Shown: one piece after another, positions 1,261 through 50,901 of the stretch
Layout: each line of letters opens with the position of its first letter
How positions within the stretch are numbered: the first letter of the stretch is position 1
From: a virus
Taxonomy: Duplodnaviria > Caudoviricetes
Reading direction: 5' to 3' (one strand)
IMG/VR virus record: IMGVR_UViG_3300019875_000001
Span: 1 to 53,144 of that record
Length of the DNA: 53,144 nucleotides
The notes under the pieces: generated by a model
What the model was told of the DNA's origin: nothing
What the model saw: the letters and a program-made list of their open reading frames with translations, nothing else
The model's database searches: none
Program-made: the position numbers and the translations under genes

Positions 1261-1603
1261 TGTGTATCTTCCTCTTCCTTAGTTTACGGGCTTTGTTAGC
1301 ACTTACGCCCTTCAAGGCAGACTTGAGATCTTTCCAATCTCCACCTGCCCCGCGATCGGGATCAAGTGTAATTATTACGCTTTTCTTCTGTGGCGGATAC
1401 TGCTGGAGGAGTAAGTCATCAGCATTGAACGCCTTATCTGTTGCGTTCTGCCTAGCCTTATTTAACTGGTAGGAAGCAAGCTGAGCCGGAAAGAAGTCAC
1501 GACGGCGGTCCCACTGATTGATACGCACATCATAAAGGGCTGTGACCTTGGCTAGGGATGACTTCCAGAACTCTTCAGAAGACAGCCCCAAACACCGAGC
1601 CAC
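1247..1603 (-). CDS. Tail assembly chaperone, downstream (T-like) segment
   Basis: Lies between chaperone G and TMP; in the -1 frame relative to 1636..2085 and open across its stop codon. Confidence 0.65.
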   Translation of the reverse strand: MARCLGLSSEEFWKSSLAKVTALYDVRINQWDRRRDFFPAQLASYQLNKARQNATDKAFNADDLLLQQYPPQKKSVIITLDPDRGAGGDWKDLKSALKGVSANKARKLRKRKIHNAKP

Positions 1604-1635
1604 AGCCCAGTACTGTAACCACGACTTGTTTGAGG

Positions 1636-2085
1636 CTAGAGAGGGTCCTCTCCCTCTCTTACTTCCTGCTTCTCCCGCACACCCTCAATCTGTACGTCCG
1701 ACATGTCGGGCAGGAATAAGTCAAGCGCGACCTTGAGACACTCAAGGACGTAAGCGTAATGACGATAGCCGAACAGCTTATCTACGGCCTCTTGCGTCAG
1801 ATCAGGCTGGTGTTCAATCAAGGACCAGTACAGCAAAGCCCCAAGTATCTCGGGGTCCTGCACCTCCTTAATCCCGAACCCAGCCGATAACAGGTTGTAA
1901 CCAGTGTCCTTGAGGATTCCCTTAACCGCGAAGTTGTTAAGCTCCATGGTATAGATCTTGCCCTTCAGGTTAATGGTCGTGAGCGGATCGAGTTGAAACG
2001 TCTCTGCAATCCGCTCCTTCCGCAGTGCCGCCGCTTCTTTGCTGCTAACAACTCTTACCGTCTCTCCGTCAATAGCCCTCACCAT
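1636..2085 (-). CDS. Tail assembly chaperone (G-like)
   Basis: Directly after the tail tube gene; ends EDPL*. Confidence 0.7.
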   Translation of the reverse strand: MVRAIDGETVRVVSSKEAAALRKERIAETFQLDPLTTINLKGKIYTMELNNFAVKGILKDTGYNLLSAGFGIKEVQDPEILGALLYWSLIEHQPDLTQEAVDKLFGYRHYAYVLECLKVALDLFLPDMSDVQIEGVREKQEVREGEDPL

Positions 2086-2097
2086 ACACTCTCCTTT

Positions 2098-2773: not shown

Positions 2774-3809
2774 ACCATTCTGCCTTAGGTAACTGCTGTC
2801 CTTCCAACAACTTAAGTATAACAGGGTCCAGTCCTAGCTTCCGCCACTTCTGTACCAAATAGGACTTTCGAGTAACAAACATCCTATCCAAGTTGATACC
2901 CTGGGCCTCAAGCTCAGGCCAAGAGGAGTGTAGTGCACGATGTAGATAGCGCATCCCTCCGAAATAGCGATTCTTATAACCAGCTGCCCTAATCTGGTAG
3001 TGGAGATCATCATCCTCATACCCCCAGCCTGGGCCGCCAAAGGGACCGCCCTCATCGAACCTCACACCCTTATGGAACAGCTCAGTGCGGAACAGGCCGT
3101 ATTGAGTCCAGGCGCACCGGATATCATCACGGGTACGAGACTCAGGTATCTCTATCAGATTGGTGGCGCATTCGTGCCGCTTGTCCGAGAAGTTAGCCGA
3201 GTAGGCACCGATCACCCCTAGATCAGAGTGACACTCCAGATACCGCATCATCGTGTAAGACGATAGCGGAACTATCTCAATGTCACCATCCATGAATAGG
3301 GTGTACTTGGAACCCTGTATCTTGGCAAAGTCGATGATTACATTGCGGGCTGTGCAGTTGCCCATATTGCGCGGCAAGTCGCACAGATGTAGATAGTGGG
3401 GCAGCTTGCCATTGAAGGATGCGCGTATGGCCTCCATAGTGCCGTCAGTTGACCCATTGTCAACCACACAGATCATGGGGAAGTTACCAAGCTGGATAAG
3501 CCTCTCAGCCTCAGCAACCAGGGCTTGCACACCCTCCACACTGATATCGCGGGTGTTCCAGCAAAGGTACCCAAGTGTAATTATTACGCTTTTGGTGCCC
3601 TCCCCATTGACTCTGGAGATGTACTCCTGGATCTCACCCTTATACTCTGTGGGTATGCCATGGCCCTTAGCCTGACAGTGAGCCCTCATCTTGACACCTG
3701 CACCAGCGCCCAGAGTGTCATAGGGACAGTCAATGCACTGACAGTGATTGAGGCCCTTACGATTGCGGGTATTCCAGGTATAGTCTAATGTGCTCTGCAT
3801 TATCCCCAT
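2739..3809 (-). CDS. GT2-family glycosyltransferase with N-terminal C2H2-like finger
   Basis: VVDNGSTDGT, N.G...ARN, FMDGD (DxD), GWGYEDDDL; N-terminal CIDC...HCQAKGH. Confidence 0.85.
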   Translation of the reverse strand: MGIMQSTLDYTWNTRNRKGLNHCQCIDCPYDTLGAGAGVKMRAHCQAKGHGIPTEYKGEIQEYISRVNGEGTKSVIITLGYLCWNTRDISVEGVQALVAEAERLIQLGNFPMICVVDNGSTDGTMEAIRASFNGKLPHYLHLCDLPRNMGNCTARNVIIDFAKIQGSKYTLFMDGDIEIVPLSSYTMMRYLECHSDLGVIGAYSANFSDKRHECATNLIEIPESRTRDDIRCAWTQYGLFRTELFHKGVRFDEGGPFGGPGWGYEDDDLHYQIRAAGYKNRYFGGMRYLHRALHSSWPELEAQGINLDRMFVTRKSYLVQKWRKLGLDPVILKLLEGQQLPKAEWYVKPKLNHNAD

Positions 3810-5012: not shown

Positions 5013-5572
5013 AGGTCAGCCCTCTCCCAGTCCTTGAACACTTTCTCACACCAGCTGGGCGTATCGTAGACAAGCTCAGCCATATCAAATACAGACTCGT
5101 CAAGCACCAGATCACGCATAGCCTTGGCAGCTGCGCGCATCTCTTTAGCCATCGCTGGACCATCCGTCTGCAAGTCCAGGATCTTGATCTTTTTGAGGAT
5201 CAGGATCATATTGACCGCCATAGCATCTAGACAGTCAGCAGCAATAAGCTTGGTGTCACCAATGTTGCCGTCCACATCAGTGTTGGCATCGATGATGTCT
5301 TGAATCGTGGAGTCAAGCAGAATAACCTGATCGTACCGGAATACGTAAATACCCGCTGAGGCACCACTGCCAAAGAGGATACGGCCATTCTGCGCATCGG
5401 TGAGGGTAAATGATGGAGCCGAGCCGCTTGGAGGTGTAATTATTACGCTTCCAGCGACCACGGGGAAGTACGTGGTTTGGAACGTCAGCTGCCCCGCAAC
5501 CGCAGTGATATTACTCGTTTGGAAGAGGGGCTGATCCTGTATTAAGGAGCGTATCTGAGTGATGAGAGACAT
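5009..5572 (-). CDS. Head-tail connector protein
   Basis: Position after capsid; QIRSLIQD...AADCLDAMA...DLQTDG. Confidence 0.6.
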   Translation of the reverse strand: MSLITQIRSLIQDQPLFQTSNITAVAGQLTFQTTYFPVVAGSVIITPPSGSAPSFTLTDAQNGRILFGSGASAGIYVFRYDQVILLDSTIQDIIDANTDVDGNIGDTKLIAADCLDAMAVNMILILKKIKILDLQTDGPAMAKEMRAAAKAMRDLVLDESVFDMAELVYDTPSWCEKVFKDWERADL

Positions 5573-7404: not shown

Positions 7405-7445
7405 TCGTTTGTGCCTCCAAAAGCGTAATTATTACACTTCGGGGC

Positions 7446-8909
7446 TTAGTACTGCCCCGTTGCGTACTTCAAACCAGCTTCCGAGACACCCAGCGCTTTC
7501 AAGTCATTCTCGAAACGCTTGTCCTCTTCAGCTTCCTTGGCCTTGTTGCGACCGCCCTCGTGAACCCCAAGGTGCTGTTCACCCATCCCAGTTACCGCAC
7601 CGGCAGACTCGCCAACATCCACGAGATCATCCGCCACTGCTTTGGCCCACACCAGATCGACTTTGCCATCGACCATTTTGGGGGACTCGCACACCCGCTC
7701 AAGCAATGAGGGCTTGATGGTGAAACCAGCCTCCCGCACAATTGCACCCACAGCCGCCATCCCAAGGATGCGGTTCTGAGTGGATTCATAGACCCGATTA
7801 CGCGCTTCTGATGCTGCCAGACTATCGCGCAGGGTCTGAATTTCCTGGTCCGTCAATGCTGCCATCGTCGTGTTCTCCTTTACTACCGTCGTTGGGGCAC
7901 TGCCCCGCTGCGATTCTGTAACCGGGACAATTGGGGCACCGCCCGCTCCTGCCTTGGTCACATAGTCTACTGAGTAAGCCCGTGTGAAAGCTTCCGCAAT
8001 AAGTCCTGTACGGCCTCCCACACTGCCCTCATTGGCCTTAATGGCGGCATTGATAGACACGCCAATGTAAGGACCTTTTTCCTTGATCTGCTCCGAGTGG
8101 TCAGAGAACAGCAGGGCATCCCCATAGAGCCCCGCACCCTTGGGACCGTTCTCATTCCAGTAGGCATCACCATTCAAGACACTGGCGAGCGAGTTGAGAT
8201 CACCCTCAGGCCGATCAGCCTCCTCCGCTTCAGTAGCATGATTGATAAACATCTGGGTGCCCTTCTTGAACGCCTTAGGCCCCGTGTTCATGATCATCTC
8301 TTTGGAGTAGTAGGCGCAAGAGCCCCACCCAGGCTTGATGATGCAGACAGGGATAGTGGTCTTGCCAGCCTCATAGACGCGGAATCCGCCCTTGGCCTGG
8401 GCTTCACCAGTCTCCGTAACGGGCCAGCAGAATTCAACGCTCTCCCTGACCACTTTGGACCCATCGTCAAGCGTAATTATTACACTTTCCTGCCCGCCAA
8501 GAGCTTTATACCAGCCCTCATTCTCTTCCAGACTTGAGTCAGGCGCATCCATAAGAACGCGCATAGACTCCTTTTCACTGGCGGAGGAGACATAGGCAAC
8601 GTGAACCTTCTTAGCATCCCCAACTGTGACGGCTGGGTCACTTCCAGCAGCACCTTGAGTAACTGTATATTTTCTCTTGTAGTTTTGGCCCCCGTGACTG
8701 TACACCACATGCTGCGGAAACACGTCACTAACCCATGGACCAGAGCTATCATAAGTGTTGCTCACCCCGTGAGCGGACATGAGGGCCGTGCGTAAGTGGC
8801 CTCTGAGCGCATCGTGCGATTGATTCATGGGCAAAGCCGCTTCAGCCGTCTTGTAGATCTTTCGGCTTATATCAGCCACGTCCACCTTTGCTTTGTAAAA
8901 GGGAAGCAT
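7446..8909 (-). CDS. Prohead protease/scaffold
   Basis: IIKPGWGS..YY, MFINH, IGVSINA, SVDYVTKAGAGG followed by a helical tail; between portal and capsid. Confidence 0.75.
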   Translation of the reverse strand: MLPFYKAKVDVADISRKIYKTAEAALPMNQSHDALRGHLRTALMSAHGVSNTYDSSGPWVSDVFPQHVVYSHGGQNYKRKYTVTQGAAGSDPAVTVGDAKKVHVAYVSSASEKESMRVLMDAPDSSLEENEGWYKALGGQESVIITLDDGSKVVRESVEFCWPVTETGEAQAKGGFRVYEAGKTTIPVCIIKPGWGSCAYYSKEMIMNTGPKAFKKGTQMFINHATEAEEADRPEGDLNSLASVLNGDAYWNENGPKGAGLYGDALLFSDHSEQIKEKGPYIGVSINAAIKANEGSVGGRTGLIAEAFTRAYSVDYVTKAGAGGAPIVPVTESQRGSAPTTVVKENTTMAALTDQEIQTLRDSLAASEARNRVYESTQNRILGMAAVGAIVREAGFTIKPSLLERVCESPKMVDGKVDLVWAKAVADDLVDVGESAGAVTGMGEQHLGVHEGGRNKAKEAEEDKRFENDLKALGVSEAGLKYATGQY

Positions 8910-8932: not shown

Positions 8933-10756
8933 CTATCGTTTAGCCCCGGCTAATGGACTTCCAGAAGGCTTAGGAGTCACCTTGGGAACAGGTTTAGATG
9001 CTGTTTTCATTGCAGCATCCGCAGATTTGAGAGCCGCATCGCCAATATCCGCCTTGCCCTGAGCCACTAAATGCTCGTCATCAACTCTGTCGGCAGGATC
9101 AGCAAAGCCCTGCAATACAGGCTCAGGATACATCAAATCGGTGATTCTCTCCGCATTCTCTTGTCCGAGGGCCTCAAGCAAAAGCTGGCAAACTACCTTC
9201 CTATCAGGGAAGATACCCTCTGCTGGACTGCCTCCCATGGTAACGGCCTGAACCAGAGAGCGAACTCGATCAGTGACATCCCGCTCTAGGATGTTGGGGA
9301 ACTCGATCTCCACATTTGTTGTCTCTTCCCCAGGCGGAATAACCGTAATAATTACAGTTCCGTCGAACTCATCGCGGGACTTTTCCACCCTAAAGCCAGC
9401 CTTGTTCAGCTTACCTCCTGGTGCCTCAGCACTCCATTCAATCAGCCGCGTGCAGAACGCCTGGATGACGCCCGCCCATAGATCTTGGCGAGAAACCATC
9501 TTAAGCTCAGTAGGGCGGTCAAGAGTGGTGGATGTGGCAAAGTTACCGATATCAGAGTCACCGAGGAAGTGTTCAGGCGTATCTGATCCTGCAGCGACCA
9601 TTGACCGTAAGGCCCTCGCCTCATCAGGCCCTGTGGTAGATCCCGCTGTCTTAATCGGCTGGACATTAGCAGCACCTGACATTAACGCCCAACTTGCTGT
9701 ATTCGTGGGCGGATTGGTATCCCTCAACTGGCCATTATTCACGCCAGTCTTAAGCTTGTTCTTGCTGGCAGCTACGCCAGCTTTACCCGGTAATCCAGAG
9801 ATTTGATAGGCCAGCCGCGCATATGCGGCCAGAATGGTGGCGAAGTTCTCCAAGATGCGCTTATACCCTGTAGCCCAGTTCAGAGCTGAGAATAGCTCAG
9901 GAAGGCCAAAACGCATCATATCCAGCCCACCAGTTCTCAAATGGTAGGTACAGGTGGTCCAGTCAATCCGTGTGCCGTCTGGTGCCTTATTCGGGCGAGT
10001 AGTGGGGTAGTAATCCCAATCAGGGTAGAGAGTATTCTGCTTTACTACATCCGTGGCTATTTCATCCTGGAGTATGAAGCCTGAAGACATGGCTCCAATG
10101 TTAGAAGTGCGGGCATAGAAGCGGGGCTCTTTCGCGTCTTCGGGGTTGTAAACGATCCCCTGTATCTGATCGAACGGTAGGAGACGGACACGAGCGGCCC
10201 CGTTTTGCTTGTTGCGGTAAAAGACAAAGAACTGGTTACCGTCAACCCTCTGTTGTCTTTCCCTTTCTGGCCAAGCGTCCCCAATAACACGCTGATTCTT
10301 GCGATTCTTAAAGAAGTCATCGAGAACCTCCTGAACTACCCCATTCTCAGCCGTGATCTTGACGCCACGGCCCCAGACATATAACTCCTGTACCGTGACT
10401 ACCCTCTTGATAAGAGGGTTGATCAGATACATCACGCGGGAGAGACTAACGATTCTGCGCAGTGTAGTGCGGTTAAAGTTGAATGTGGTGCTGGGATCAC
10501 CACCAATCCAGCCCCTATCCTCACTGGCAAAGGATGCTTCAAGCTCAGAGAAGGCGCTTTCAAAGACTTGGGTGAACTGCTTGGTCAGGCCATCCTGAGA
10601 GCCAATCTCAGGCATACCGGCACCACTTGAACCCCCGCCGCCCTGGATTAGAGCCTCCTCAGCCAGATCAGCCGTCGCCCGCATGTGATTAGCGCCAAGA
10701 GAGGCACCAGTTAGCCCGCCCACGAGCCTATCGCGCAATCCACTGAAAAATCGCAT
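8933..10756 (-). CDS. Portal protein
   Basis: 607 aa just downstream of TerL; NPLIKR, DGNQF, RFGLPE, P.HFLGD...NFAT. Confidence 0.8.
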   Translation of the reverse strand: MRFFSGLRDRLVGGLTGASLGANHMRATADLAEEALIQGGGGSSGAGMPEIGSQDGLTKQFTQVFESAFSELEASFASEDRGWIGGDPSTTFNFNRTTLRRIVSLSRVMYLINPLIKRVVTVQELYVWGRGVKITAENGVVQEVLDDFFKNRKNQRVIGDAWPERERQQRVDGNQFFVFYRNKQNGAARVRLLPFDQIQGIVYNPEDAKEPRFYARTSNIGAMSSGFILQDEIATDVVKQNTLYPDWDYYPTTRPNKAPDGTRIDWTTCTYHLRTGGLDMMRFGLPELFSALNWATGYKRILENFATILAAYARLAYQISGLPGKAGVAASKNKLKTGVNNGQLRDTNPPTNTASWALMSGAANVQPIKTAGSTTGPDEARALRSMVAAGSDTPEHFLGDSDIGNFATSTTLDRPTELKMVSRQDLWAGVIQAFCTRLIEWSAEAPGGKLNKAGFRVEKSRDEFDGTVIITVIPPGEETTNVEIEFPNILERDVTDRVRSLVQAVTMGGSPAEGIFPDRKVVCQLLLEALGQENAERITDLMYPEPVLQGFADPADRVDDEHLVAQGKADIGDAALKSADAAMKTASKPVPKVTPKPSGSPLAGAKR

Positions 10757-10782
10757 ACTGTAATAATTACACTTTCGTGGAC

Positions 10783-11172: not shown

Positions 11173-11265
11173 GTACCAAGCGTACCATAGGGAAAGTACC
11201 TTATTGTGCAATTTCGTACATTATGGTACTAGGGTAGATCCCCCATAAGCGTAATAATTACAGTT

Positions 11266-13136: not shown

Positions 13137-13242
13137 AAAAGTGTAATCATTACAGTTTGGTAGACTAAATTAAGGCTACCGGAAGCCGGGGCAGTTCTCT
13201 CTTTCTGCCCTTTCGATTAGGGGGGAGGTGCGGGCCTTCCCC

Positions 13243-14348: not shown

Positions 14349-14385
14349 TTAGGGACCTAACTGTAATTATTACAGTTTTAGACGT

Positions 14386-14895: not shown

Positions 14896-14983
14896 TATAT
14901 TTGTTTTATTTGGGTCAAAAGTGTAATTATTACGCTTTTGGGCTATTTCGCACTGCACTTTTAGTATTTCTGGTCGATTTTTC

Positions 14984-15673: not shown

Positions 15674-16166
15674 ACATCACCTCAACTGTAATTATTACAC
15701 TTTTGCTTATTCCTCTTTTGGCCTTGGCTCCCTGAGTAACCTCGTCTTTTCTGCTCGGCTGCCTATGTAACCTCCCCCCGATCGCCTGTGCGCAGGAGTC
15801 ACATTCGCTCGTTTGTGACTCCCATCTTTCCTATTAGCGCCATCGGGTGAATTCCCGCTATCCGTACTACTATCTACTCAATGTAATAATTACACTCCTA
15901 GCGAGCATTGCGCTTTAGCGCAATGCGAGCGGCTCAGGGCGCACGCTAGGCCAGTGCACCCGCAAGTACCGGACACATGCGGTCAATCGATCCTAGAGCC
16001 TGCTAGGCACAAGTACGGCACCCTGTACAATCGCTCAGTGAGTGCATCGCGGCGGGTCAAATCGACCAATCGATCTAGTGCGCCACTATGGGACTAACTC
16101 CTATGCCGAATGGACCATAGACTAACGCCTAGAAAAATCAGAAACATACACCACTTGAAAGTGTGC

Positions 16167-17946: not shown

Positions 17947-17974
17947 CCGTAATTATTACGCTTTTGGAGGATAA

Positions 17975-19515: not shown

Positions 19516-19691
19516 TCACTAGGCTAGGCTTGCGAGTCTAGCCAATGAGGTGAAACTATGGACAGGATAACGGTGATTATGACTGGTGACCCTCCCCCAG
19601 GCGAGTATGAAGAGTGGAAGAATGGGCAGTGGGTAGCCTGCAAGTAATCCGCTAGAAAGCGTAATTATTACGCTTTCGCTGAGGTTTGCTT

Positions 19692-20569: not shown

Positions 20570-20657
20570 CGGAGCGGGTCCAGAGTCACAGGCTAGAGGG
20601 TGCTGAGAAGTGCCCTCAATGACTGTAATTATTACGGTCAGAACGAATGGAGAGTGT

Positions 20658-28898: not shown

Positions 28899-28899
28899 A

Positions 28900-31026: not shown

Positions 31027-31209
31027 TAGGTACCCAAAATAGTGTTCTGGGGTTTTTCAGAACGGGCTACTTGGATTTCTCGGATTTAGAATCCGATTTA
31101 GTTTCGGTATTAGGTGCCAGAGCCTTCTGCAATGCATAATAGAGATCTAGCAGATACCGGATGTCGTGCGGGCCTTCCTGATTGTTTGGTGTGCTCATAA
31201 CTGTAATTA

Positions 31210-32963: not shown

Positions 32964-33157
32964 TACGGTTCTAGATCCGCCAGAATTTGCACCATCAGCT
33001 TCTCTGGGTGAGCAGATAGGAACCTGCCGCAGTGTAGTTTCCCACAGTCATGGCAGGTGTACTCGATTCTGAACATGTGACCATGTATGGCAGCTAAACG
33101 CTGGGCAGTGATCATACCTAGCCAAGCCTCATGAGGTACCAGGATTCGCATTATCAT
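32963..33157 (-). CDS. Small hypothetical protein
   Basis: CHDC..HC; TAATG-coupled to polA. Confidence 0.5.
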   Translation of the reverse strand: MIMRILVPHEAWLGMITAQRLAAIHGHMFRIEYTCHDCGKLHCGRFLSAHPEKLMVQILADLEP

Positions 33158-33717: not shown

Positions 33718-34029
33718 CTACCCTGCTTTAACGTTTCCAAGTCCACTTCTTTGTTCGTAGGCACTTTGTGGCTCCTTCTTAACCGTAATAATTACGCTTT
33801 CTGCTGCTTTTACATCAGCCTCTAGCTTCTCCCAGCTAAGAGACTCCTTACCATCCCACCCGAGAGGGCCAAGAGTGTATAGGTTGAAGCCTGTAGTGTG
33901 GATGATGGGATATAGTAGGCCCATCTTGCGCAGACGATACCAACGGCTGATGATGTCGATCTCATCCTTGCCCCACTCCCCAGTTAAGATGTGTCCTGGT
34001 GTGTGCTTCATCATGCTGCGTCCCTCCAT
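33718..34029 (-). CDS. Hypothetical protein
   Basis: ORF in the operon; true start probably near 34014. Confidence 0.5.
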   Translation of the reverse strand: MEGRSMMKHTPGHILTGEWGKDEIDIISRWYRLRKMGLLYPIIHTTGFNLYTLGPLGWDGKESLSWEKLEADVKAAESVIITVKKEPQSAYEQRSGLGNVKAG

Positions 34030-36027: not shown

Positions 36028-36794
36028 TTGATCCCCCTTATCTCTCTTACAATCTTCTTTGCTGTTGCTGGGCCTATCCCCTCAATAGCCATCCAGTCAG
36101 ACTCATCCGAGTTGGCCAGAGCATGGCCAGTCTTGAACATTGCCGCCGCCTGGGTGCCATACACTACCCCGATATCATCCAGCGCATCAGCCCACCTACG
36201 GGCCAGACTAGGCTTGCCGCTCAGCACTGGAATCGCGGGCTTGTGAATCTCAATCATGCTGGTGTGAGTCTTCTTTTGGAAGTACTGGTACATCTCACAG
36301 ATGTTGTACGCAGTGTGGTACAGATCGTTGGATTGCGTAATTATTACACCCGCACGCTGCACGCTGATCATGTACCGGAACAGCTTGGAGTAGAGTATTC
36401 GTCTGGCACCGCCCATGCTAGTTTTGAGCGGACCCCAGGACTGACCGCTACGGTATCCCTGCATGAGGATGCCATCGTACCCATTGCCATTGCCTGGGCA
36501 CCACATACCCTCAAGGCACATGAACGCATGGCCACGGCTGTATAGCTTAGTCATCCCTATGTACTGGTGGCCAGAGAAGCGAGAGTCATCGATACAGCTG
36601 AGCATGTCATTGAGGGTCTTACGCTCAATCCCCACCGTGACTGGACCCTTAGGACCCCTGCCCTCAAAGGACACATCCCCGTAAGGAAGCTCAGTAGACT
36701 CACAGGCAATCCCCAGCTTGCGTATGATCGGCTGGAGTAGCTCTTTGCCCTTACCATCACTGCCACTGCCCCGCCGATAGTCCACGTAGATCAT
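36024..36794 (-). CDS. ERCC4/XPF-type nuclease with HhH tail
   Basis: IYVDYR, L.YGD, IERKT..D, LEG; IEGIGPATAKKI. Confidence 0.8.
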   Translation of the reverse strand: MIYVDYRRGSGSDGKGKELLQPIIRKLGIACESTELPYGDVSFEGRGPKGPVTVGIERKTLNDMLSCIDDSRFSGHQYIGMTKLYSRGHAFMCLEGMWCPGNGNGYDGILMQGYRSGQSWGPLKTSMGGARRILYSKLFRYMISVQRAGVIITQSNDLYHTAYNICEMYQYFQKKTHTSMIEIHKPAIPVLSGKPSLARRWADALDDIGVVYGTQAAAMFKTGHALANSDESDWMAIEGIGPATAKKIVREIRGIK

Positions 36795-38170: not shown

Positions 38171-38194
38171 AAGATCCTCCTTAAACCGTAATAA

Positions 38195-38371
38195 TTACGC
38201 TTTTACTCTCAGGTCTTCTGCTCTCATGATGGCCATCTCAGCCTGTGCCAAGTCGCGGGTGATTGGTAGGGGGAATACTTTAGCCTCCTTGCGCCACTGC
38301 TGTATGAGAGCAACTACGGCAGCCGCTTGTTCCATGGTCAGAACTACTGTCAGTTTTCGAGTGTCGTTCAT
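38195..38371 (-). CDS. Small hypothetical protein (below the ORF-track cutoff)
   Basis: ATGA overlap with the ATPase gene; stop inside the palindrome. Confidence 0.45.
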   Translation of the reverse strand: MNDTRKLTVVLTMEQAAAVVALIQQWRKEAKVFPLPITRDLAQAEMAIMRAEDLRVKA

Positions 38372-39261: not shown

Positions 39262-39947
39262 TATTCAAATCTCCCATGGTTGATCCTGTGAGCCTCTTCA
39301 AGCTGAAGCATTGCCTCAAACTCTCTCTTGTAGTCCGCTAGCAGATTCCAGTTATTGTCTAGCTCATCCTGGGTGAACTCAATCTCCCAGACAATGCGCT
39401 GAGGGGTGATGGGGAACTTGTAGTTGCCGCAGAGGAACCAGCAGTGCATTACAGCAAAGCGGGTGCCCACTGCGATGCAGTAAGCTTTCATCTGGGCCAA
39501 CCACATCCATTGGTTCTCCAGATTGCCTACTGTCTTGGTGCTCTTATAAGTGGCCTTGACTTCATGAACCCGTTTGGTCAGGCTCATGCTCTTTTTGAGA
39601 TGCTCGTTGAGCGTAATTATTACGCTTTCGTCTTGGCCGTCGTGCGTCATGTAGACGCCATCGTACAGAAGCTCTTGCGGGTGATCCTCAACGCCGTACA
39701 TGCTGAGGATCTCTGGTATGTAGTACTGCTCAATAGCCAGCCCTATACTGATACGTAGTATTGCTGTTGGATCGGTAATGGTGCGGACATCCACAAGGGA
39801 TAATTCCTCAGCCCATTCGGCTTTAAGGATGCCCGCTTCAGTTGCAATGCACCTGATGATAGATGAGACATGCGTGCCGACAGAGCGCGGAGTCTTAGGC
39901 GCAGGCAGAAACAGCGGATAGTTATCGGTGCTGACGTTTACGATCAT
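39261..39947 (-). CDS. PD-(D/E)XK exonuclease-like protein
   Basis: HVSSI, G.A.E, DG...HEVKAT, QMKAY. Confidence 0.7.
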   Translation of the reverse strand: MIVNVSTDNYPLFLPAPKTPRSVGTHVSSIIRCIATEAGILKAEWAEELSLVDVRTITDPTAILRISIGLAIEQYYIPEILSMYGVEDHPQELLYDGVYMTHDGQDESVIITLNEHLKKSMSLTKRVHEVKATYKSTKTVGNLENQWMWLAQMKAYCIAVGTRFAVMHCWFLCGNYKFPITPQRIVWEIEFTQDELDNNWNLLADYKREFEAMLQLEEAHRINHGRFE

Positions 39948-41443: not shown

Positions 41444-41456
41444 AAAAGTGTAATAA

Positions 41457-43019
41457 TTACGCTGCCCACTGCATTGGCGCGGGTAAAATGCTAATGGTGC
41501 GCATGAAAGCATTGAAGCTATCAGGGGCCAAGTGCTTAAAACGTGGATAGAACCAGTCCATATGCTCATCACATATGAAGTTCTCGCACCAGTCTGTTCT
41601 ATCCCTCATGCCCCTGCCAATAGCCTGCACCAGAGCTTGCATGGCCTGATAGGGGCGGTACTCCTTATCCACAGCCTCACGAGCCTTCACGATCTTGCTT
41701 GGTGGCTCAAATGGGATCTTGCACAGGAACTGCCAGCGTGCCCGATCATGCTTGAAGTCAAAGCCCTCGAATACACTAGGGCTAACTAGGATAGAACCTG
41801 CACCGGCTTGAAAGAACTCATTAACTGATCTGTCAATGGGCTCACCTTTCTTATTCAGGATCATAGACGGCGCGAATCTAGATCTCTCTTTGATCTCTCC
41901 CTGCCGATCATACGACGTGCTATGGATGACGCCCTTTCTATCCCGCCGTCTACAAGCCACTCGGTCAAGTACAGCCCAAAGTAAACCAAGGTCATTAGCT
42001 TTCGAGTCCACTCGCATGGTAGGCAGATAATAAATAGGAGAACGGCGAGGATCAAAATCACTGGGCAACTCCTTGAAGGTGTAGGCCTCTTTTGGGATGT
42101 GGCACATCTGAACGGTCTTGTGCCGGATAGTAGCAGACACCCAAGTAACATCAGGAACCTGAAGTAGTAGAGTAGCTTCAGTGTACCGACCAGGACGGAT
42201 AGGATCGAACTTGTATCCAAGCTCAGTCTGATCAACAATCCAGTCCACAGGCTTAGCCAGACAGAGGATACCCAGACGGCGGCACAAGTTACGCATATGG
42301 GTGTAGTGCCTGACCCATGCGGGCTTAGGGTCACGGGCATTCTCCAGCTTGTTGTAAGCTGCCTTAAGCTCAGAGTCTGCATACTGCTTGGCATTACCAG
42401 CCCAGGCACGCCATACGTTCATGTCATCCGAGTCATAGCCACGGGGGAAGGGAATACCCAGAGTATCCTCAATCTCCTTGTGATTGAGAACCACTTGCAT
42501 AGCATCAGCTACAGCTTGAGGAGCGTGATGAGCCTCATCAAAGATCACCCTCTTGACGTGCGAGAGGCCCATACCGAAGCGTTTGTTTGCAGTCCACTTG
42601 CTGTAGTTGGTGACGATGAGACTGGAGGTTGAGGCCCTCATCTCAGCCTTACTCGAAGGGCAGGCAACCGTACCCTTGTAGCCACACTTAGCGGCATACC
42701 CGTCTTCACAGGTATAGCCCGCTTTCATCTCACAAGTGTAATTATTACGGCCACGCAGATCTACCATCCCTATGGATGAGAAGTCAGTCATGTACTGATC
42801 CTGTAGACCACGGGTAGCCGTAACAATGGCCGTAGGCTCACCACTTTCCAGGGCATCAGCTACAACAAGGGCAGACTTACCAGAGCCGGTAGGAGCACAC
42901 AAGACCTTACTCCTGGTCTTTGTGGTTCTGAGGAATTCAAAGCCCGTCTCCTGATTGGGACGCCAGCTATCAAACTTCTCAGGTAGCCCGATATCTTGAG
43001 GTGTACGTATCTTCTCCAC
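41457..43019 (-). CDS. DinG/XPD-family SF2 helicase
   Basis: RPNQ, APTGSGKS, LQDQY, four-Cys cluster, DEAH, SAT, EGFDF, QAIGRGMR..D. Confidence 0.9.
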   Translation of the reverse strand: MEKIRTPQDIGLPEKFDSWRPNQETGFEFLRTTKTRSKVLCAPTGSGKSALVVADALESGEPTAIVTATRGLQDQYMTDFSSIGMVDLRGRNNYTCEMKAGYTCEDGYAAKCGYKGTVACPSSKAEMRASTSSLIVTNYSKWTANKRFGMGLSHVKRVIFDEAHHAPQAVADAMQVVLNHKEIEDTLGIPFPRGYDSDDMNVWRAWAGNAKQYADSELKAAYNKLENARDPKPAWVRHYTHMRNLCRRLGILCLAKPVDWIVDQTELGYKFDPIRPGRYTEATLLLQVPDVTWVSATIRHKTVQMCHIPKEAYTFKELPSDFDPRRSPIYYLPTMRVDSKANDLGLLWAVLDRVACRRRDRKGVIHSTSYDRQGEIKERSRFAPSMILNKKGEPIDRSVNEFFQAGAGSILVSPSVFEGFDFKHDRARWQFLCKIPFEPPSKIVKAREAVDKEYRPYQAMQALVQAIGRGMRDRTDWCENFICDEHMDWFYPRFKHLAPDSFNAFMRTISILPAPMQWAA

Positions 43020-43085: not shown

Positions 43086-43472
43086 TTATGCGCGCTTAAG
43101 CACGGGCCTAAACGCTGGCAGACGTGGGGCAGGTACTCCACCACGTTTGAAGGTGTCGATGTCAGAGCTATCCTCTTTGGCGATGCGCTGATTGTGCATC
43201 TGTAGTACATCTGTATTGCTCTTGGCAATCTCTTCAGCACGGTCCTGTAGACCTTGCACAAAGTCGTCCAATGTCATGCCTAGGATGGCCGAGATCTTCA
43301 TGCAGTGCTTGAGAGAAGGCGTACGCTGTGCCCTGAAGATACGTGACAGATAGGACACGTCCAGATGTTGTGCACGCGCAATAGCCGACAGATTAATGAA
43401 CTGTCCCCTGAATCGAATTGTTTGAGCATTAGGCGACTTCTCAACTACGCCGCTCTTACCAGCTTTTGCCAT
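43086..43472 (-). CDS. XRE/Cro-CI family HTH regulator
   Basis: LSAIARAQHLDVSYLSRIFRAQRTPSL....KIS.ILGMTLDDF. Confidence 0.85.
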   Translation of the reverse strand: MAKAGKSGVVEKSPNAQTIRFRGQFINLSAIARAQHLDVSYLSRIFRAQRTPSLKHCMKISAILGMTLDDFVQGLQDRAEEIAKSNTDVLQMHNQRIAKEDSSDIDTFKRGGVPAPRLPAFRPVLKRA

Positions 43473-43544
43473 GTAGACATAGTAACACAGAAAACTGTAA
43501 TCATTACACTTTCAGGTATGCAGTACTTTGGTACTATGTAGCAC

Positions 43545-46310: not shown

Positions 46311-46328
46311 ACCGTAATAATTACACTT

Positions 46329-48274: not shown

Positions 48275-48286
48275 AAAGCGTAATAA

Positions 48287-50872
48287 TTACATTCCTATGA
48301 TGTTGCCAAAGTTGATAACATTCCAACCCTGACCAGTGGCACCGCCGCCACTTGAGCCAGTCCCAATGTATATGTTGACACGGTTATTGTCTGGATCGTC
48401 TATGACAGTTATAACCATTCCACCCTGCCCAATGAAGTTAAGGGTGTGCCGAGTAGAGATAGAGATACCATCAGACTGAACCTCAATCTTAGTGGGCTGC
48501 CAACTAACACCAGCATCAGCCCCGCTGTCCGCTGTCAGTACATCGTCATCATCCCCCACAGGGAGACGAGTAACATCACCGTCATACACCACCAGATCAC
48601 CGACAGTAGTCAGTGGCGTGAGATCAGGTAGATCCTCCCAGTCAGCGTCAAAGTCAGCATCAGACAGCTTAGTCAGGACTTGGCCAGTAGTGCCGCCAGT
48701 TGGGAAGCCTGCACCATCGTCGCCTTTAAGTGCGAGTAGATCCCAGAAGTCTGTACCTTCTACCAGAGGCTCATTTGCAATGTTGTCATCCTGCAAGCTG
48801 ATGTAGCTAGAGCCTAAGTGCTGTACAGCATCCCCCAGGTCGTAGGTAGACCCGCCATTCCATGGACCCTTCCACTGTCCGGTAACCGTCACCTGATTGA
48901 CGATGCCCCATAGCACAGTGATAGTCGCTACGCCATTGGCGTCGAATTGCCCATCGGAGTTGGTGATATCCCAAGTGATTGCTTGGCCTTTGACAAGCTT
49001 CTTAGTCTTGATAGAGACTGATACCTCTGTCTCAATGGCTGTGCCCTCTGGAATAGTGATAGTCTCCAGCAGCACACCACCGACATTAACGTCTACAGTG
49101 AGATCCTCTGTGATAGTCCGACGCAGTACACCCAGGATTCTCAGTCCTGGGCCAGTCTCCTGCACTGTCAGCACAGGACCCTTGTTAGTGCCCTCTGCCA
49201 GATTGTGCATGTCGAATACTCGCCAGAATGCCTGAGGCCCCGGTGCCCCTCCACCACCACCCCCAGTGTCATCACCAGGGCGTAAGCGGGCAAGAGTAGC
49301 CCTCCAATCCCAATCAATGAGAGGAGAGCCCAGCGCGGTCACTTCCCAAAACACCCAGGCCCCGTCTGTGGCGACCGTAATTGAGTCAATCACAAAACGT
49401 GAGTTGACTCCCCAGCGAGCCTTGTTGACCAGAATGTTCTGACCAATGCGCAACCCATTCTTGAATGTCTTGATGCTCAGCTTCTTGGGGATGACGCCGA
49501 ACTGCTGGCCAATGGCCCGAGCGTATGTCTCACCATCCACCAGAGAGTTAGGGCCGTCCTGTTGCTGGACGCTCTCATGGTAGCCAGTGCCACCCTGCCT
49601 AGCTGACGCGAAATCAATAGCATCCTCATTGTAGTAAGTGGCAAAGCCAGCCTCAAACATTGAAGCAGTGATGACAATCACAGCCCCTAAGATAGGAGCC
49701 GTGCCCGATGCATCCTGACTAATACCAGTGGAGTTGAGATTCCAGTAGTAATCCTTGCCGGTGTTGACTCCACCTACACCCACAGTCTTGGGGTCACCAT
49801 CCACTGTGATAGTGGGCTCTCCTGCCGCTGGACTTGGCAGACTCCAGTTCTTAGTACTACCATCTCCCGTGAATGAGATAGCTTGAGGCGTTGACGCCTG
49901 ATTGCCCTCACGCACGATCACGCGATTAACAAAGGTGTCGCCATCCTCATCGATCTCGGTACCCACTGTGTAATCTTCAGGGTCCGCGTCATCTGTGATG
50001 TCGAAAGGTGCGGCTGGTCCCACAGTGTCATCAGATATGACAATCTTCTTGTCAGGCGAGATATACCAGTGCATCCACTGTGGCGGATCACCCTGAGTAG
50101 CGGAGGTTATGATGTTGTCAAATGCATTGCCGCATGGTGCATAGCTCACCTTGAAAGATGGGATAGCTACACCTTCAGCCTCTGGCACAAAGTCAAAGCC
50201 CTCACTGCTCAGAGCATTGACAACCAGATACTTCATGATTGCCGAGGGTAGAGTGTTGTCGAACTGACCAAATACAGGGTTGGCAATGGGAGAGTCAGGG
50301 TCAGTAGGCTCTCCAGTGGTGCGACCGTAGGCCAAGACTTCCCAGCCTACAGCGTCCACCTGCCATTTCATGTAGTCTTCATTGCCCTCCACCTCGATGG
50401 CTTTGACGCGCATGATCAAGCCGCCAAAGTACTTATCACCATCCACGATGCCCAAGATAGGTTGAAGGGTCAGAGGAGGAGTCAGCGTATCCATGAATGT
50501 GAATGACGCTGTGTCGTGTGTAGTCAACGAGTTGTTGATATGGAACGTGTTTACCTGAGGTGATCCACGCTTACGAAACACGGTGCAATTGGACAGGGCA
50601 TCCGGTGTCTGAGTAGCCGGGTCCTCAACCTCACACACATCATCACTGGTGACTGAGACAATTACCGTACGCAGCATCCCATTGTCAGTGGTGCTCACGT
50701 CAATAGGATCAGATGCCCCGATGATCCAGATAGGCGCACCTATATCAGCGTCAGTGAAGTGCGCTCTACCTGAGATGTCCGTAACTGTGGTGCCAGAGAT
50801 AGTCATCTGGCCCGTAAATACTTGGCCTACGCGGATTTCAGCGAGATCGACAGGCGTTTTGACTAGGCTCAT
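48287..50872 (-). CDS. Tail tip/hub protein
   Basis: Follows TMP; WYISPDKKI, FVNRVIV; W....TY..GD.V...GSSY carbohydrate-binding-like segment. Confidence 0.7.
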   Translation of the reverse strand: MSLVKTPVDLAEIRVGQVFTGQMTISGTTVTDISGRAHFTDADIGAPIWIIGASDPIDVSTTDNGMLRTVIVSVTSDDVCEVEDPATQTPDALSNCTVFRKRGSPQVNTFHINNSLTTHDTASFTFMDTLTPPLTLQPILGIVDGDKYFGGLIMRVKAIEVEGNEDYMKWQVDAVGWEVLAYGRTTGEPTDPDSPIANPVFGQFDNTLPSAIMKYLVVNALSSEGFDFVPEAEGVAIPSFKVSYAPCGNAFDNIITSATQGDPPQWMHWYISPDKKIVISDDTVGPAAPFDITDDADPEDYTVGTEIDEDGDTFVNRVIVREGNQASTPQAISFTGDGSTKNWSLPSPAAGEPTITVDGDPKTVGVGGVNTGKDYYWNLNSTGISQDASGTAPILGAVIVITASMFEAGFATYYNEDAIDFASARQGGTGYHESVQQQDGPNSLVDGETYARAIGQQFGVIPKKLSIKTFKNGLRIGQNILVNKARWGVNSRFVIDSITVATDGAWVFWEVTALGSPLIDWDWRATLARLRPGDDTGGGGGGAPGPQAFWRVFDMHNLAEGTNKGPVLTVQETGPGLRILGVLRRTITEDLTVDVNVGGVLLETITIPEGTAIETEVSVSIKTKKLVKGQAITWDITNSDGQFDANGVATITVLWGIVNQVTVTGQWKGPWNGGSTYDLGDAVQHLGSSYISLQDDNIANEPLVEGTDFWDLLALKGDDGAGFPTGGTTGQVLTKLSDADFDADWEDLPDLTPLTTVGDLVVYDGDVTRLPVGDDDDVLTADSGADAGVSWQPTKIEVQSDGISISTRHTLNFIGQGGMVITVIDDPDNNRVNIYIGTGSSGGGATGQGWNVINFGNIIGM

Positions 50873-50901
50873 AAGCGCTCATAAAGCGTAATAATTACAG
50901 T

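What the first reader, a model, noticed from the sequence alone, without database searches (positions are those of the whole stretch)
1368..50898. Whole phage genome tiled with 38 copies of one palindromic site
Seen: 38 exact GTAATNATTAC cores (counted by eye), with conserved flanks giving AASYGTAATNATTACRSTT. About 0.05 copies are expected by chance (53144/4^10). They occur in every module, about one per 1.4 kb, with no internal gap above ~2.8 kb. Known: dispersed site arrays include RK2 KorB operators, B. subtilis Noc sites, E. coli matS and the asymmetric mycobacteriophage stoperators. Inference: a dimeric protein coats the whole genome for global silencing, compaction/segregation or shielding from host nucleases. 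The density and symmetry do not look like an ordinary operator set.
Basis: partly seen in the sequence, partly recalled or inferred. Interest (0 to 1): 0.92.

Follow-up and report, generated by a model that had tools for sequence, protein, structure and literature searches.

The report
Phage-wide docking sites for orphan ParB
A soil phage carries one exact 13-letter DNA palindrome about every 1.4 kb, and comparison with its relatives suggests this is the docking site of the phage's own partner-less ParB/KorB-type DNA-binding protein, a plasmid-style system for controlling or marking a whole genome.

Summary
There are 38 exact GTAATNATTAC cores (0.02 expected). The full site is the dyad AASY-GTAAT-N-ATTAC-RSTT. 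Only 4 one-mismatch copies exist. Sites are evenly spaced, about two thirds lie at gene junctions, and the rest are written into proteins as V-I-I-T.

The array is a clade trait. Related soil-phage contigs that share only a replication module carry 25-59 copies per genome. Some lineages have changed both half-sites together (GTAAC, GTAAA, GTAGT, GTAYT, GTAKC). More distant relatives have none. The two flanks vary independently, so this is a double-strand site for a symmetric dimer, not a hairpin.

The most likely reader is the phage's own ParA-less ParB/Noc/KorB-family protein (23135-24496):
- It is present in 8 of 8 fetched genomes.
- Its profile matches Noc, Spo0J and KorB.
- Its C-terminal domain is predicted to dimerise.
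- A site lies at its gene in 7 of 8 genomes.
- One recognition-helix residue tracks the motif variant in 15 of 15 genomes.

Binding, CTP use and purpose (genome-wide silencing or marking) are untested. The rivals are the XRE regulator and a host Zur-like protein, since the site is a near Zur box. This scan has found similar arrays in other phages. Verdict: a new variant of a known kind.

The parts
1368..1378 (.). site; inside the ORF frame 1247-1684(-), read as V-I-I-T
3577..3587 (.). site; inside the glycosyltransferase gene 2739-3809(-), V-I-I-T
5436..5446 (.). site; inside ORF 5009-5572(-), V-I-I-T
7425..7435 (.). site; between the stop of 7446-8909(-) and the SD and start of 6991-7404(-)
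8473..8483 (.). site; inside 7446-8909(-) at residue 143, the same codon position in G008 and G003
9345..9355 (.). site; inside 8933-10756(-) at residue 468 (G008 has one at 470)
10760..10770 (.). site; 3 nt upstream of the ATG of 8933-10756(-)
11251..11261 (.). site; just after the stop of the large terminase gene 11266-12666(-)
13143..13153 (.). site; 6 nt upstream of the ATG of 12669-13136(-)
14363..14373 (.). site; gene junction upstream of 13953-14348(-)
14923..14933 (.). site; near a strand switch
15688..15698 (.). site; upstream of the SD and start of 15504-15680(-)
15883..15893 (.). site; in the sparsely coding region before the early operon
17949..17959 (.). site; between the RNase III-like gene (stop at 17946) and the SD and start at 17975
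19661..19671 (.). site; upstream of an early (+) gene start
20625..20635 (.). site; upstream of the SD and ATG of the DUF932-like gene
22615..22625 (.). site; gene junction in the early operon
23068..23078 (.). site; 57 nt upstream of the ParB-like gene start
24631..24641 (.). site; 135 nt downstream of the ParB-like gene stop
25143..25153 (.). site; upstream of the SD and start of 24922-25140(-)
26248..26258 (.). site; gene junction after the stop of 26267-27766(-)
27790..27800 (.). site; gene junction upstream of 26267-27766(-)
28667..28677 (.). site; context unclear because ORFs overlap here
29284..29294 (.). site; overlaps the stop of the methyltransferase gene 29291-29977(-), with an ATG 6 nt downstream
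30435..30445 (.). site; 4 nt upstream of the ATG of 30134-30430(-)
31203..31213 (.). site; 4 nt upstream of an ATG
32956..32966 (.). site; contains the listed ATG (32963) of the family A DNA polymerase gene
33785..33795 (.). site; upstream of the SD and GTG of 33591-33764(-)
35310..35320 (.). site; 5 nt upstream of an ATG of the UDG-exonuclease gene
36337..36347 (.). site; inside the ERCC4-HhH nuclease gene at residue 150, the same codon position in G002, G007 and G008
38188..38198 (.). site; upstream of the SD and start of 37502-38170(-)
39613..39623 (.). site; inside 39261-39947(-) at residue 109, the same codon position in G002, G007 and G008
41450..41460 (.). site; just after the helicase stop (41457), with an ATG 6 nt downstream
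42738..42748 (.). site; inside the helicase gene at residue 91, read as R-N-N-Y
43497..43507 (.). site; 25 nt upstream of the XRE gene start, between divergent genes
46314..46324 (.). site; between the stop at 46329 and the ATG at 46310
48280..48290 (.). site; between the stop at 48287 and the ATG at 48274
50888..50898 (.). site; between the stop at 50902 and the next ATG
23135..24496 (+). orphan ParB/Noc/KorB-family gene (453 aa), the proposed reader. It has an N-terminal ParB fold (GHYR, ENxxRxDLxPMD), an HTH, a long helical hairpin and a C-terminal dimer domain.
23675..23704 (+). predicted recognition helix (residues 181-190). Residue M183 (23681-23683) is the position that tracks the motif variant across genomes.
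21868..22092 (+). free-standing 74-aa copy related to the ParB-like C-terminal part. It clusters with the ParB-like family. Its role is unknown.
43086..43472 (-). XRE-family HTH regulator at the head of the replication operon. It is the rival reader, or possibly a partner.

Best explanation
The 38 sites are double-strand DNA docking sites for a symmetric dimer of the phage's own ParA-less ParB/Noc/KorB-family protein (gene 23135-24496). Each monomer reads one half-site, AASYGTAAT, through its helix-turn-helix. The C-terminal domain holds the dimer together.

The array is kept at roughly one site per 1.2-2.7 kb over the whole genome. Sites are placed where they cost least: at gene junctions, or at hydrophobic V-I-I-T stretches inside proteins.

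By analogy with KorB on plasmid RK2 and with Noc, the bound protein, possibly a CTP-dependent clamp that spreads from its loading sites, would control or mark the entire phage genome. Lineages change specificity by changing a recognition-helix residue and both half-sites together.

Shown here: the array, its symmetry, its spread through a clade, the universality and family membership of the ParB-like gene, and the residue-motif association. Inferred: binding, nucleotide use, spreading and purpose.
For: DNA site, not hairpin:
- Flank pairs +-1 and +-2 form Watson-Crick partners in 14 of 38 and 16 of 38 sites, against 18.9 and 19.4 expected if independent.
- In gene orientation the asymmetric +-1 pairs are C.A in 14 sites and U.G in 10, counted by eye.

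Clade trait with concerted half-site change:
- Genomes carry 25-59 copies.
- Variant lineages use GTAAC, GTAGT, GTAYT, GTAAA and GTAKC.
- 14 outgroup loci of 10-21 kb, with helicase 30-36% identical, have no array.

Selection on the DNA itself:
- Sites sit at the same codon in several genomes.
- The Thr codon after a site is ACA or ACG in 19 of 19 site-bearing rows.

Even spacing: gap CV is 0.48-0.64 in 5 of 6 genomes, against about 0.97 in a null anchored on gene starts, with P<=0.0034. The sixth genome gives P=0.085.

- The ParB-like family is present in 8 of 8 fetched genomes.
- Profile A7 matches Noc 7NG0 (E 1.9e-10), Spo0J 6SDK, ParB 4UMK and KorB 8QA8 (E 2.4e-6) over the N-domain and HTH.
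- G88, R91, Q124, N128 and R131 are invariant.
- The modelled recognition helix spans residues 181-190.
- Residue 183 is M, F or L in the 11 genomes whose main half-site is GTAAT. It is H in the 2 genomes with GTAAA half-sites. It is W in the 3 genomes with position-4 variants. That is 15 of 15 (motif types).
- The C-terminal domain modelled as a homodimer scores ipSAE 0.57, against 0.00 for the best of 3 controls. The mark was reached by 20 of 30 solved homodimers and 1 of 23 single chains. The runs agree in at least 88% of contacts and pLDDT is at least 68. ParB-family C-terminal dimers are solved, so this pass may reflect likeness to them.
- A lineage-specific site lies 39-246 nt upstream of the ParB-like start in 6 of 8 genomes, and at the start in a seventh.
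- No ParA was found in 5 genomes.
Against: - Nothing shows binding.
- The protein does not reach Pfam's ParB_N threshold. One search gave no family. In one search the window gave no match and the best relative scored 17 bits against a cut-off of 26.3.
- The GERR arginine patch reads GHYR, GAYR or GNYR, so CTP binding is uncertain.
- I found the residue-motif association after inspecting the helix. It rests on perhaps 3-4 independent switches, and the trees are poorly resolved.
- No ParB-like sequence from a strict GTAAC lineage could be obtained.
- The ParB-like gene was found in only 2 of 8 partial records searched, which are 26-59% complete. Fragments cannot settle this.
- The outgroup loci cover only the helicase neighbourhood, so I do not know whether they lack the ParB-like gene.
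- Half of the sites lie within -45..+60 nt of a gene start. A pure loading-site model does not require this.
- The XRE regulator is also nearly universal and often has a site upstream.
Confidence: 0.58

Rival explanations
1. The reader is the XRE-family HTH regulator (43086-43472) at the head of the replication operon. It would act like the cluster A mycobacteriophage repressor on stoperators, as a dimer blocking or tuning transcription at many gene junctions.
For: - It is a canonical XRE fold. Profile A5 matches SinR, C.BclI, DdrO, an immunity repressor and lambda cI.
- A strong profile hit lies next to the helicase in nearly all clade loci. It is only weak or distant in the outgroup.
- A lineage-specific site lies within 220 nt upstream in 14 of 23 loci, and also in the window.
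- Arg50 is conserved in GTAAT lineages and changed in 3 of 5 variants.
Against: - It is absent from G010 (67 kb, 78% complete), which has 41 GTAAANTTTAC sites. A ribbon-helix-helix-looking ORF sits in its place.
- It is absent from the two fragments L149 and L197.
- Recognition-helix residues are not conserved among phages that share the identical GTAAT site, and they do not separate the variants.
Confidence: 0.12
2. The sites are boxes for a host Fur-family metalloregulator such as Zur. The phage would use them to sense or soak up this regulator.
For: - The Bacillus-group Zur consensus is TAAATCGTAATNATTACGATTTA (passages in PMC545781 and PMC2706843). The phage consensus AAASYGTAATNATTACRSTTT has the same 7-1-7 layout and the same core when Y is C.
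- No Fur-family gene was found in 5 phage genomes, so any such reader would have to be the host's.
Against: - Position -2 is never T (0 of 76), whereas Zur has T there.
- Position -1 is C in only half of the half-sites and mostly T in relatives. A B. subtilis study names positions 4, 5, 15 and 16 of its 20-nt motif as most critical (PMC4324032 passage). Mapping those positions to the CG before TAAT is my inference, because I did not see the figure.
- Variant lineages change the AAT-N-ATT centre, which the Fur, PerR and Zur boxes quoted in those papers share.
- An 18-base version of the site gave only 22 scattered single hits in 185,579 species genomes.
Confidence: 0.07
3. Another protein of the shared module reads the sites for replication or recombination rather than transcription. 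Examples are the OB-fold plus winged-helix protein 40231-41265 or the unknown 166-aa protein 30476-30976. The sites might serve, for instance, as priming or loading sites spaced like Okazaki fragments.
For: - Both families are present in 8 of 8 genomes.
- The replication module is the only module shared by all genomes.
- The 40231 family was detected in all clade loci and in none of 14 outgroup loci. Its model has a C-terminal winged-helix-like domain.
- No primase or initiator gene was recognised.
- Spacing is even.
Against: - The OB-linker-winged-helix layout looks like an SSB or RPA32-type protein, and the fold matches are weak (E 0.1-1).
- Columns that track the motif are no more frequent than in other families.
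- There is no evidence that either protein binds double-strand DNA specifically.
Confidence: 0.1
4. The palindrome acts as an RNA or single-strand DNA hairpin: a terminator, a processing site for the phage RNase III-like enzyme, or a translational operator.
For: - The sites lie at gene junctions.
- T-rich and A-rich flanks surround them.
- The phage encodes an RNase III-domain protein.
Against: - There is no covariation beyond the invariant core.
- There is no bias toward U.G over C.A on the transcribed strand (14 C.A against 10 U.G, counted).
- Only 4 base pairs plus a 3-nt loop are guaranteed.
- One third of the sites lie deep inside genes.
- The sequence is invariant rather than structure-conserving.
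Confidence: 0.03

Closest known systems
KorB and its OB operators on IncP plasmid RK2 (PMC11790492; I read passages and the introduction)
   Same: - It is a ParB-family protein that acts outside segregation.
- Its palindromic operator has an unconstrained or S centre. The OB core was seen in that paper's oligo, TTTAGCGGCTAAA.
- Its sites are scattered over a mobile genome, some next to promoters and some far away.
- It acts as a dimer through a C-terminal domain.
   Different: - RK2 has about 12 OB sites (recalled, not seen in the passages). This phage has 38.
- KorB has a ParA partner (IncC; recalled) and a clamp-locking partner, KorA. No ParA was found here.
- The GERR motif is altered here.
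- This is a phage with no integrase, not a plasmid.
- CTP binding and sliding are untested.
Noc and its binding sites on the B. subtilis chromosome
   Same: - It is the best sequence match: 7NG0, E 1.9e-10.
- It is an orphan ParB with no ParA.
- It has many dispersed palindromic sites over a whole replicon.
   Different: - Noc is a host cell-division factor that tethers DNA to the membrane (recalled).
- Its site sequence is different.
- I did not look for a membrane-targeting N-terminus in the phage protein.
17-bp dyad repeat of Cluster O mycobacteriophages (PMC4351075; section 8 read in full)
   Same: - There are more than 30 copies per siphovirus genome, 34 in Corndog.
- The arms are invariant, with only 3 one-change copies.
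- The centre is variable.
- 14 sites are intergenic, 10 lie at gene 5' ends and 10 are internal.
- The site is absent from the host genomes.
- The authors suggested a dimeric binder, and the function is unknown.
   Different: - The sequence differs (TGTTCGGNNNCCGAACA) and has a 3-bp centre.
- The five genomes are close relatives, so no concerted specificity changes were seen.
- No reader was proposed beyond three DNA-binding candidates.
Stoperators of Cluster A mycobacteriophages (PMC6550527 passages; PMC9283540 abstract only)
   Same: - There are 20-30 sites throughout the genome, mostly not at promoters.
- The motifs form a lineage-specific spectrum that co-varies with the phage's own binder.
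   Different: - Stoperators are asymmetric, oriented with transcription, and read by a monomeric repressor of temperate phages.
- The sites here are symmetric and unoriented.
- No integrase was found here.
Zur box of the Bacillus group (PMC545781 and PMC2706843 passages)
   Same: It has the same 7-1-7 layout, the same GTAATNATTAC core and A/T flanks.
   Different: - Position -2 is S here, never T.
- Position -1 is C or T here.
- Variant lineages alter the AT-rich centre.
- There are dozens of copies in a phage, rather than a few at zinc-uptake promoters.

Membership tests
ParB/Noc/KorB family (ParB-CTPase fold plus HTH) | N-terminal ParB fold with the conserved boxes (GERR-type patch; ENxQRxDLxPxE) | tested here: inconclusive
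   - The profile alignment to Noc, Spo0J and KorB covers this domain.
- G88, R91, Q124, N128 and R131 are invariant in 8 sequences.
- However, GERR reads GHYR, GAYR, GNYR or GEYR.
- Pfam ParB_N is not reached: no family, and a best score of 17 bits against a cut-off of 26.3.
ParB/Noc/KorB family (ParB-CTPase fold plus HTH) | Helix-turn-helix DNA-binding domain after the N-domain | tested here: met
   The segment SNSxxNxxLSFLDLPKxIQxKIHEG aligns to QSTIANKLRLLKLPQEVQ of Noc. The model has helices at 158-164 and 181-190.
ParB/Noc/KorB family (ParB-CTPase fold plus HTH) | C-terminal dimerisation domain | tested here: met
   Residues 372-453 modelled as a homodimer score 0.57, against 0.00 for the best of 3 controls. 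This is a model, not a measurement.
ParB/Noc/KorB family (ParB-CTPase fold plus HTH) | Specific binding to a palindromic site (parS, NBS or OB) | not testable with these tools
   There is only indirect support: residue 183 tracks the motif in 15 of 15 genomes.
ParB/Noc/KorB family (ParB-CTPase fold plus HTH) | CTP binding, clamp closure and sliding | not testable with these tools
   The altered arginine patch leaves this open.
Canonical ParABS partition system | Adjacent ParA ATPase | tested here: not met
   PF13614 and PF01656 were found in 0 of 5 genomes and in 14 of 14 control genomes. This is therefore an orphan ParB, not a ParABS system.
Stoperator/immunity-repressor system of Cluster A phages | Asymmetric sites oriented with transcription | tested here: not met
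   The sites are palindromic. The central base shows no orientation with gene direction.
Stoperator/immunity-repressor system of Cluster A phages | Temperate lifestyle (integrase or partition cassette) | tested here: not met
   PF00589 and PF00239 were found in 0 of 5 genomes. No prophage relative was found by helicase patterns in the species genomes.
Fur-family (Zur) box | 7-1-7 inverted repeat with TCGTAAT arms | tested here: inconclusive
   The layout and the GTAAT core match. Position -2 is T in 0 of 76 half-sites and position -1 is C in 38 of 76. The consensus comes from PMC545781 and PMC2706843.
Cluster O-type dispersed dyad repeats | More than 30 invariant dyad sites, split among intergenic, gene 5'-end and internal places, and absent from host genomes | tested here: met
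   The sequence and the phage group are different, so this is an analogue, not a relative.

The most novel reading that the evidence does not exclude
A clade of non-integrating soil siphoviruses uses an orphan ParB-type switch protein as a genome-wide self-marking or silencing system. Loading sites are kept at a spacing that matches how far such a clamp can travel, even at the cost of fixing V-I-I-T peptides in essential proteins. Specificity is re-set by a single recognition-helix residue (M/F to H to W) together with about 40 sites. This would create incompatibility or immunity groups among phages that otherwise swap modules freely.
Probability: 0.3. Interest if true: 0.8.

Novelty: new variant of a known kind. 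Interest (0 to 1): 0.6.

Why it matters
Orphan ParB-fold proteins are common on phages and other mobile elements, but their jobs are mostly unknown (PMC12704722 passages). Dispersed invariant palindromes in phage genomes, such as those of Cluster O mycobacteriophages, have had no assigned reader.

This clade links the two. It offers a simple, testable specificity code: one helix residue against two bases of the half-site. It also offers natural variants for swap experiments.

If the protein is a CTP-type clamp, this would extend KorB-style long-range control from plasmids to lytic-looking phages. It would also explain why site spacing, and not only site position, is conserved.

In my literature searches I found no paper describing this motif array or a phage-wide ParB site array.

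Tried and rejected
- My own error, later corrected: after I concluded that the ParB-like gene was not universal. One search kept only hits whose single best piece covered half the query, and Pfam ParB_N is too distant a model for this protein. All-against-all clustering found the gene in 8 of 8 genomes.
- HIP1 cyanobacterial palindrome: 0 copies.
- tRNAs: none.
- Nucleotide search of known phages: no match.
- The capsid protein's best named relative is Methanoculleus virus Blf4 at 38% identity. This gave no host clue that I could use.
- Host or prophage search: helicase patterns found no relative in the species genomes. The 18-base site pattern gave 22 single hits in unrelated taxa, and at most 2 cores in any 8-kb locus.
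- Promoter reading: no conserved -35 box lies at a fixed distance. The variant motifs do not keep a -10-like hexamer (my reasoning, not a tool result).
- XRE covariation: no clean pattern.
- Column scans in seven core families found only scattered columns.
- Protein 40231-41265: no Pfam family in 25 members, no PDB sequence match, and weak fold matches to the OB-fold protein PrgE and to winged-helix domains.
- Proteins 39261-39947 and 30476-30976: no useful PDB sequence match.
- RNase III atlas look-up: no host signal.
- Trees are too poorly resolved to show whether the motif type follows the ParB-like gene rather than the replication module.
- Sequencing runs: the stretch is held by soil-metagenome DNA runs of 19 studies, and no RNA holder is listed.
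- Laid contigs showed about 90 differences in 20 kb. None of the 40 listed falls in a site, but only about 1 would be expected.
- Six loose ends in run X3 sit exactly at sites, and their letters are the flanks of other sites in this genome. I read these as short local matches of contigs from elsewhere in the phage, not as recombinants, but I could not exclude recombination.
- Spare fold searches were not used on the ParB-like model, because the sequence profile already placed it.

Full report
**The observation**

The window is one IMG/VR virus record of 53,144 bases, estimated 96% complete. Shuffled sequence gives 0.02.

Pooling both halves of every site gives the half-site AASY-GTAAT. The base before the core is always C or T (38 and 38 of 76). 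The one before that is G or C in 74 of 76 and never T. Then comes A in 68 of 76 and A in 59 of 76.

The core is all-or-none. There are 38 exact copies, 4 with one mismatch, and 14 with two mismatches, which is about the chance level. The same holds in relatives, counting exact, one-mismatch and two-mismatch copies: 44/4/13, 26/1/15, 25/4/29 and 41/7/22.

Gaps between sites average 1338 bases with a CV of 0.48 and a maximum of 2817. Random placement gives a CV of 0.98, and no simulation of 20,000 was as even.

**Where the sites lie**

I used a simple longest-ORF gene model. Under it, 13 of 38 sites lie deep inside genes, although 85% of the genome does. In addition, 21 of 38 lie within -45 to +60 nt of a predicted gene start, against 15% of random positions. 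Six relatives behave the same way.

Many junction sites fill the whole gap between a stop codon and the next start. Eleven are followed by an ATG 3-6 nt later with no Shine-Dalgarno sequence. Others are followed by a clear GGAGG-type sequence. In relatives with a central G, the ATG inside the motif is often the predicted start.

Eight of nine clearly internal sites are read GTA-ATN-ATT-ACN, which is V-I-I-T. Gene anchoring does not explain the even spacing. Against a null that puts 62% of sites on gene starts, the observed CV is lower than all or nearly all of 5000 simulations in five of six genomes. The sixth gives P=0.085.

**Hairpin or double-strand site**

If the palindrome worked as an RNA or DNA hairpin, the variable flank positions should pair. 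They do not. Watson-Crick pairs at +-1 and +-2 number 14 of 38 and 16 of 38, slightly below the 18.9 and 19.4 expected from independent halves.

On the transcribed strand, the asymmetric +-1 pairs are C.A 14 times and U.G 10 times (counted). The two halves are therefore read independently, as a symmetric dimer on duplex DNA would read them.

**A clade trait with concerted changes**

A pattern scan of viral contigs and three protein-guided scans gave about 28 viral and 78 metagenome loci around a shared helicase. All loci of 4 kb or more whose helicase is at least about 43% identical carry the motif family.

Whole records hold the following counts:
- Window: 38 copies.
- G001: 37 copies, plus 22 with one variant half.
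- G007: 44 copies.
- G008: 26 copies.
- G009: 25 copies.
- G005: 19+7 copies.
- G006: 13+16 copies.
- G010: 41 copies.

G+C content runs from 0.41 to 0.63. Several lineages have changed both halves together:
- GTAACNGTTAC
- GTAGTNACTAC
- GTAYTWARTAC
- GTAAANTTTAC
- GTAKCNGMTAC

Intermediates mix GTAAT with GTAAC or GTAAA halves. Fourteen more distant loci of 10-21 kb, with helicase 30-36% identical, show no such array and no other repeated palindrome that I could detect.

The window shares its structural genes only with G008 and G003. All genomes share only a replication module. Even so, the array covers every module.

**Selection on the DNA inside genes**

Mapping sites through protein alignments shows several at the same codon in different genomes:
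- ERCC4 residue 150 in the window, G002, G007 and G008.
- Protein 39261-39947 residue 109 in the same four genomes.
- Protein 7446-8909 residue 143 in the window, G008 and G003.
- Helicase residue 29 in G002, G007 and G008.

Other positions have turned over.

Genomes without the site at these places have a similar hydrophobic peptide written with other codons. In all 19 site-bearing rows the Thr codon is ACA or ACG, which keeps the purine after the core.

**Who reads it**

I first favoured the XRE-family regulator beside the helicase. It is a canonical XRE fold and lies next to the helicase in nearly all clade loci. It often has a lineage-specific site upstream, in 14 of 23 loci plus the window.

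Three facts count against it. It is missing from G010, a 67-kb record that is 78% complete and has 41 sites. A ribbon-helix-helix-looking ORF takes its place there. Its recognition-helix residues vary among phages with the identical site. They also do not separate the variants.

I had wrongly set aside the ParB-like gene because of a coverage filter and a weak Pfam result. All-against-all clustering of eight records shows which families are universal:
- The ParB-like protein, 424-466 aa.
- The helicase.
- Four replication or repair proteins.
- An OB-plus-winged-helix protein.
- A 166-aa unknown protein.

The ParB-like gene is also present in G014, G016 and five further loci. Six other partial records, 26-59% complete, gave no match.

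A profile of the eight ParB-like proteins matches Noc (7NG0, E 1.9e-10), Spo0J, ParB and KorB (8QA8, E 2.4e-6) across the N-domain and the helix-turn-helix. G88, R91, Q124, N128 and R131 are invariant, but the GERR patch reads GHYR or similar.

The model shows four parts: the ParB N-domain, a recognition helix at residues 181-190, a helical hairpin of about 150 residues, and a three-helix C-terminal domain. Two copies of that C-terminal domain score 0.57 as a dimer, against 0.00 for the best of three controls. The mark was reached by 20 of 30 solved homodimers and 1 of 23 single chains. The runs agree in at least 88% of contacts, and pLDDT is at least 68. ParB-family dimers are solved, so the pass may partly reflect likeness to them.

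No ParA gene, no integrase or resolvase gene and no Fur-family gene was found in the five genomes searched in each case.

**The residue-motif association**

In the conserved helix start S-N-S-x, residue x (M183 in the window) behaves as follows (motif types):
- It is M, F or L in all 11 genomes whose main half-site is GTAAT.
- It is H in the two genomes with GTAAA halves. G010 is strict GTAAA, and G014 mixes GTAAA with GTAAT.
- It is W in the three genomes where half-site position 4 has changed: G005 (GTAGT), G016 (GTAKC) and G006 (GTAYT).

That is 15 of 15. However, G005 and G016 are sisters in the ParB-like tree and the trees are otherwise unresolved. The number of independent changes is therefore perhaps three or four. 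I also found the column by inspecting the helix where specificity was expected.

A lineage-specific site lies 39-246 nt upstream of the ParB-like start in six of eight genomes, and at the start in a seventh.

**Mechanism, and what is inferred**

The following is shown:
- An invariant, symmetric, evenly spaced site array.
- Its maintenance by selection, even inside genes.
- Its concerted diversification within a clade.
- A universal orphan ParB/Noc/KorB-family gene whose recognition helix tracks the variants.

The following is inferred:
- This protein binds the sites as a dimer.
- It may load there and spread as KorB and ParB do with CTP.
- The result is genome-wide transcriptional control or marking of phage DNA.

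The enrichment at gene starts suggests an effect on expression. KorB likewise works both next to promoters and at a distance (PMC11790492, introduction). The XRE protein could be a partner rather than a rival, as KorA is for KorB, but that is speculation.

**Comparison with what is known**

The closest functional model is KorB with its OB operators. The closest sequence relative among solved proteins is Noc. The closest phage precedent for the DNA pattern is the 17-bp dyad repeat of Cluster O mycobacteriophages. It has 34 invariant copies with the same intergenic, 5'-end and internal split, and its function is unknown (PMC4351075, section 8).

Stoperators of Cluster A phages share the idea of a lineage-specific motif spectrum co-varying with a phage binder, but they are asymmetric and oriented (PMC6550527 passages).

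The core also equals the Bacillus-group Zur box core (PMC545781 and PMC2706843 passages). The systematic differences at -1 and -2, and the variants that change the AT-rich centre, make a host Zur an unlikely reader.

Earlier notes of this scan describe similar dispersed palindromes in other phages. One describes a 13-bp palindrome paired with an orphan ParB (e1-5916946). The kind is therefore recurrent in this scan's own unchecked notes.

**Verdict**

This is a new variant of a known kind, with a concrete and testable reader hypothesis. Interest is 0.6.

Noticed in passing
window 17452-17946 (+): This is a phage-encoded RNase III-domain protein of 164 aa without a double-strand RNA-binding domain (Pfam Ribonucleas_3_3, E 1.6e-33). 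A first-reader note links it to repeated hairpins in the early operon.
   Followed up: partly
window 40231-41265 (-): This protein has a confident OB-fold N-domain, a Pro/Ala-rich linker and a C-terminal winged-helix-like domain, resembling an SSB or RPA32-type layout. It has no Pfam family. It was detected in all clade loci and in none of 14 outgroup loci.
   Followed up: partly
L149 8091-10523: The helicase of this relative is 810 aa, with a roughly 290-residue insert splitting the conserved sequence. It looks like an intein or homing element.
   Followed up: no
L199 9757-9996 (record G010): A 79-aa ORF that looks like a ribbon-helix-helix protein by eye sits where the XRE gene lies in all other relatives. 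This genome keeps a 41-site array.
   Followed up: partly
L141 9176-9400 (-) and homologues in L140, L150, L042, L197: A second small HTH protein is transcribed divergently from the XRE gene, with a motif site between the two genes in a cI/cro-like layout. The window has no such gene.
   Followed up: partly
window 43472-43545: On either side of site 43497 lie mirrored TGnTACTAT extended -10-like elements, each 7-9 nt before an ATG. This suggests divergent promoters with leaderless or very short-leader transcripts.
   Followed up: no
window 25137-31213, run X3: Six loose ends of laid contigs sit exactly at motif sites and continue into the flanks of other sites of this genome. They are probably short local matches, but recombination between sites was not excluded.
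   Followed up: partly
window 33555-33766, run X3: One contig replaces 210 bases, the small ORF 33591-33764, with 38 other letters. This is a strain variant ending 19 nt before site 33785.
   Followed up: no
window 21868-22092 (+); G001 19618-19884: Free-standing short ORFs related to part of the ParB-like protein occur in the window and in G001.
   Followed up: partly
window 34011-35384 and 31470-32963 (-): The DNA polymerase is split. A UDG-like domain fused to a 3'-5' exonuclease is encoded separately from the family A polymerase domain. An ERCC4-HhH nuclease and a Sak4-like Walker-A protein lie in the same module.
   Followed up: no
whole records W, G001, G006-G010: The preferred central base of the site differs by lineage. 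It is A/T in the window and G006, and G/C in G001, G005 and G007-G010. This is unexplained.
   Followed up: partly
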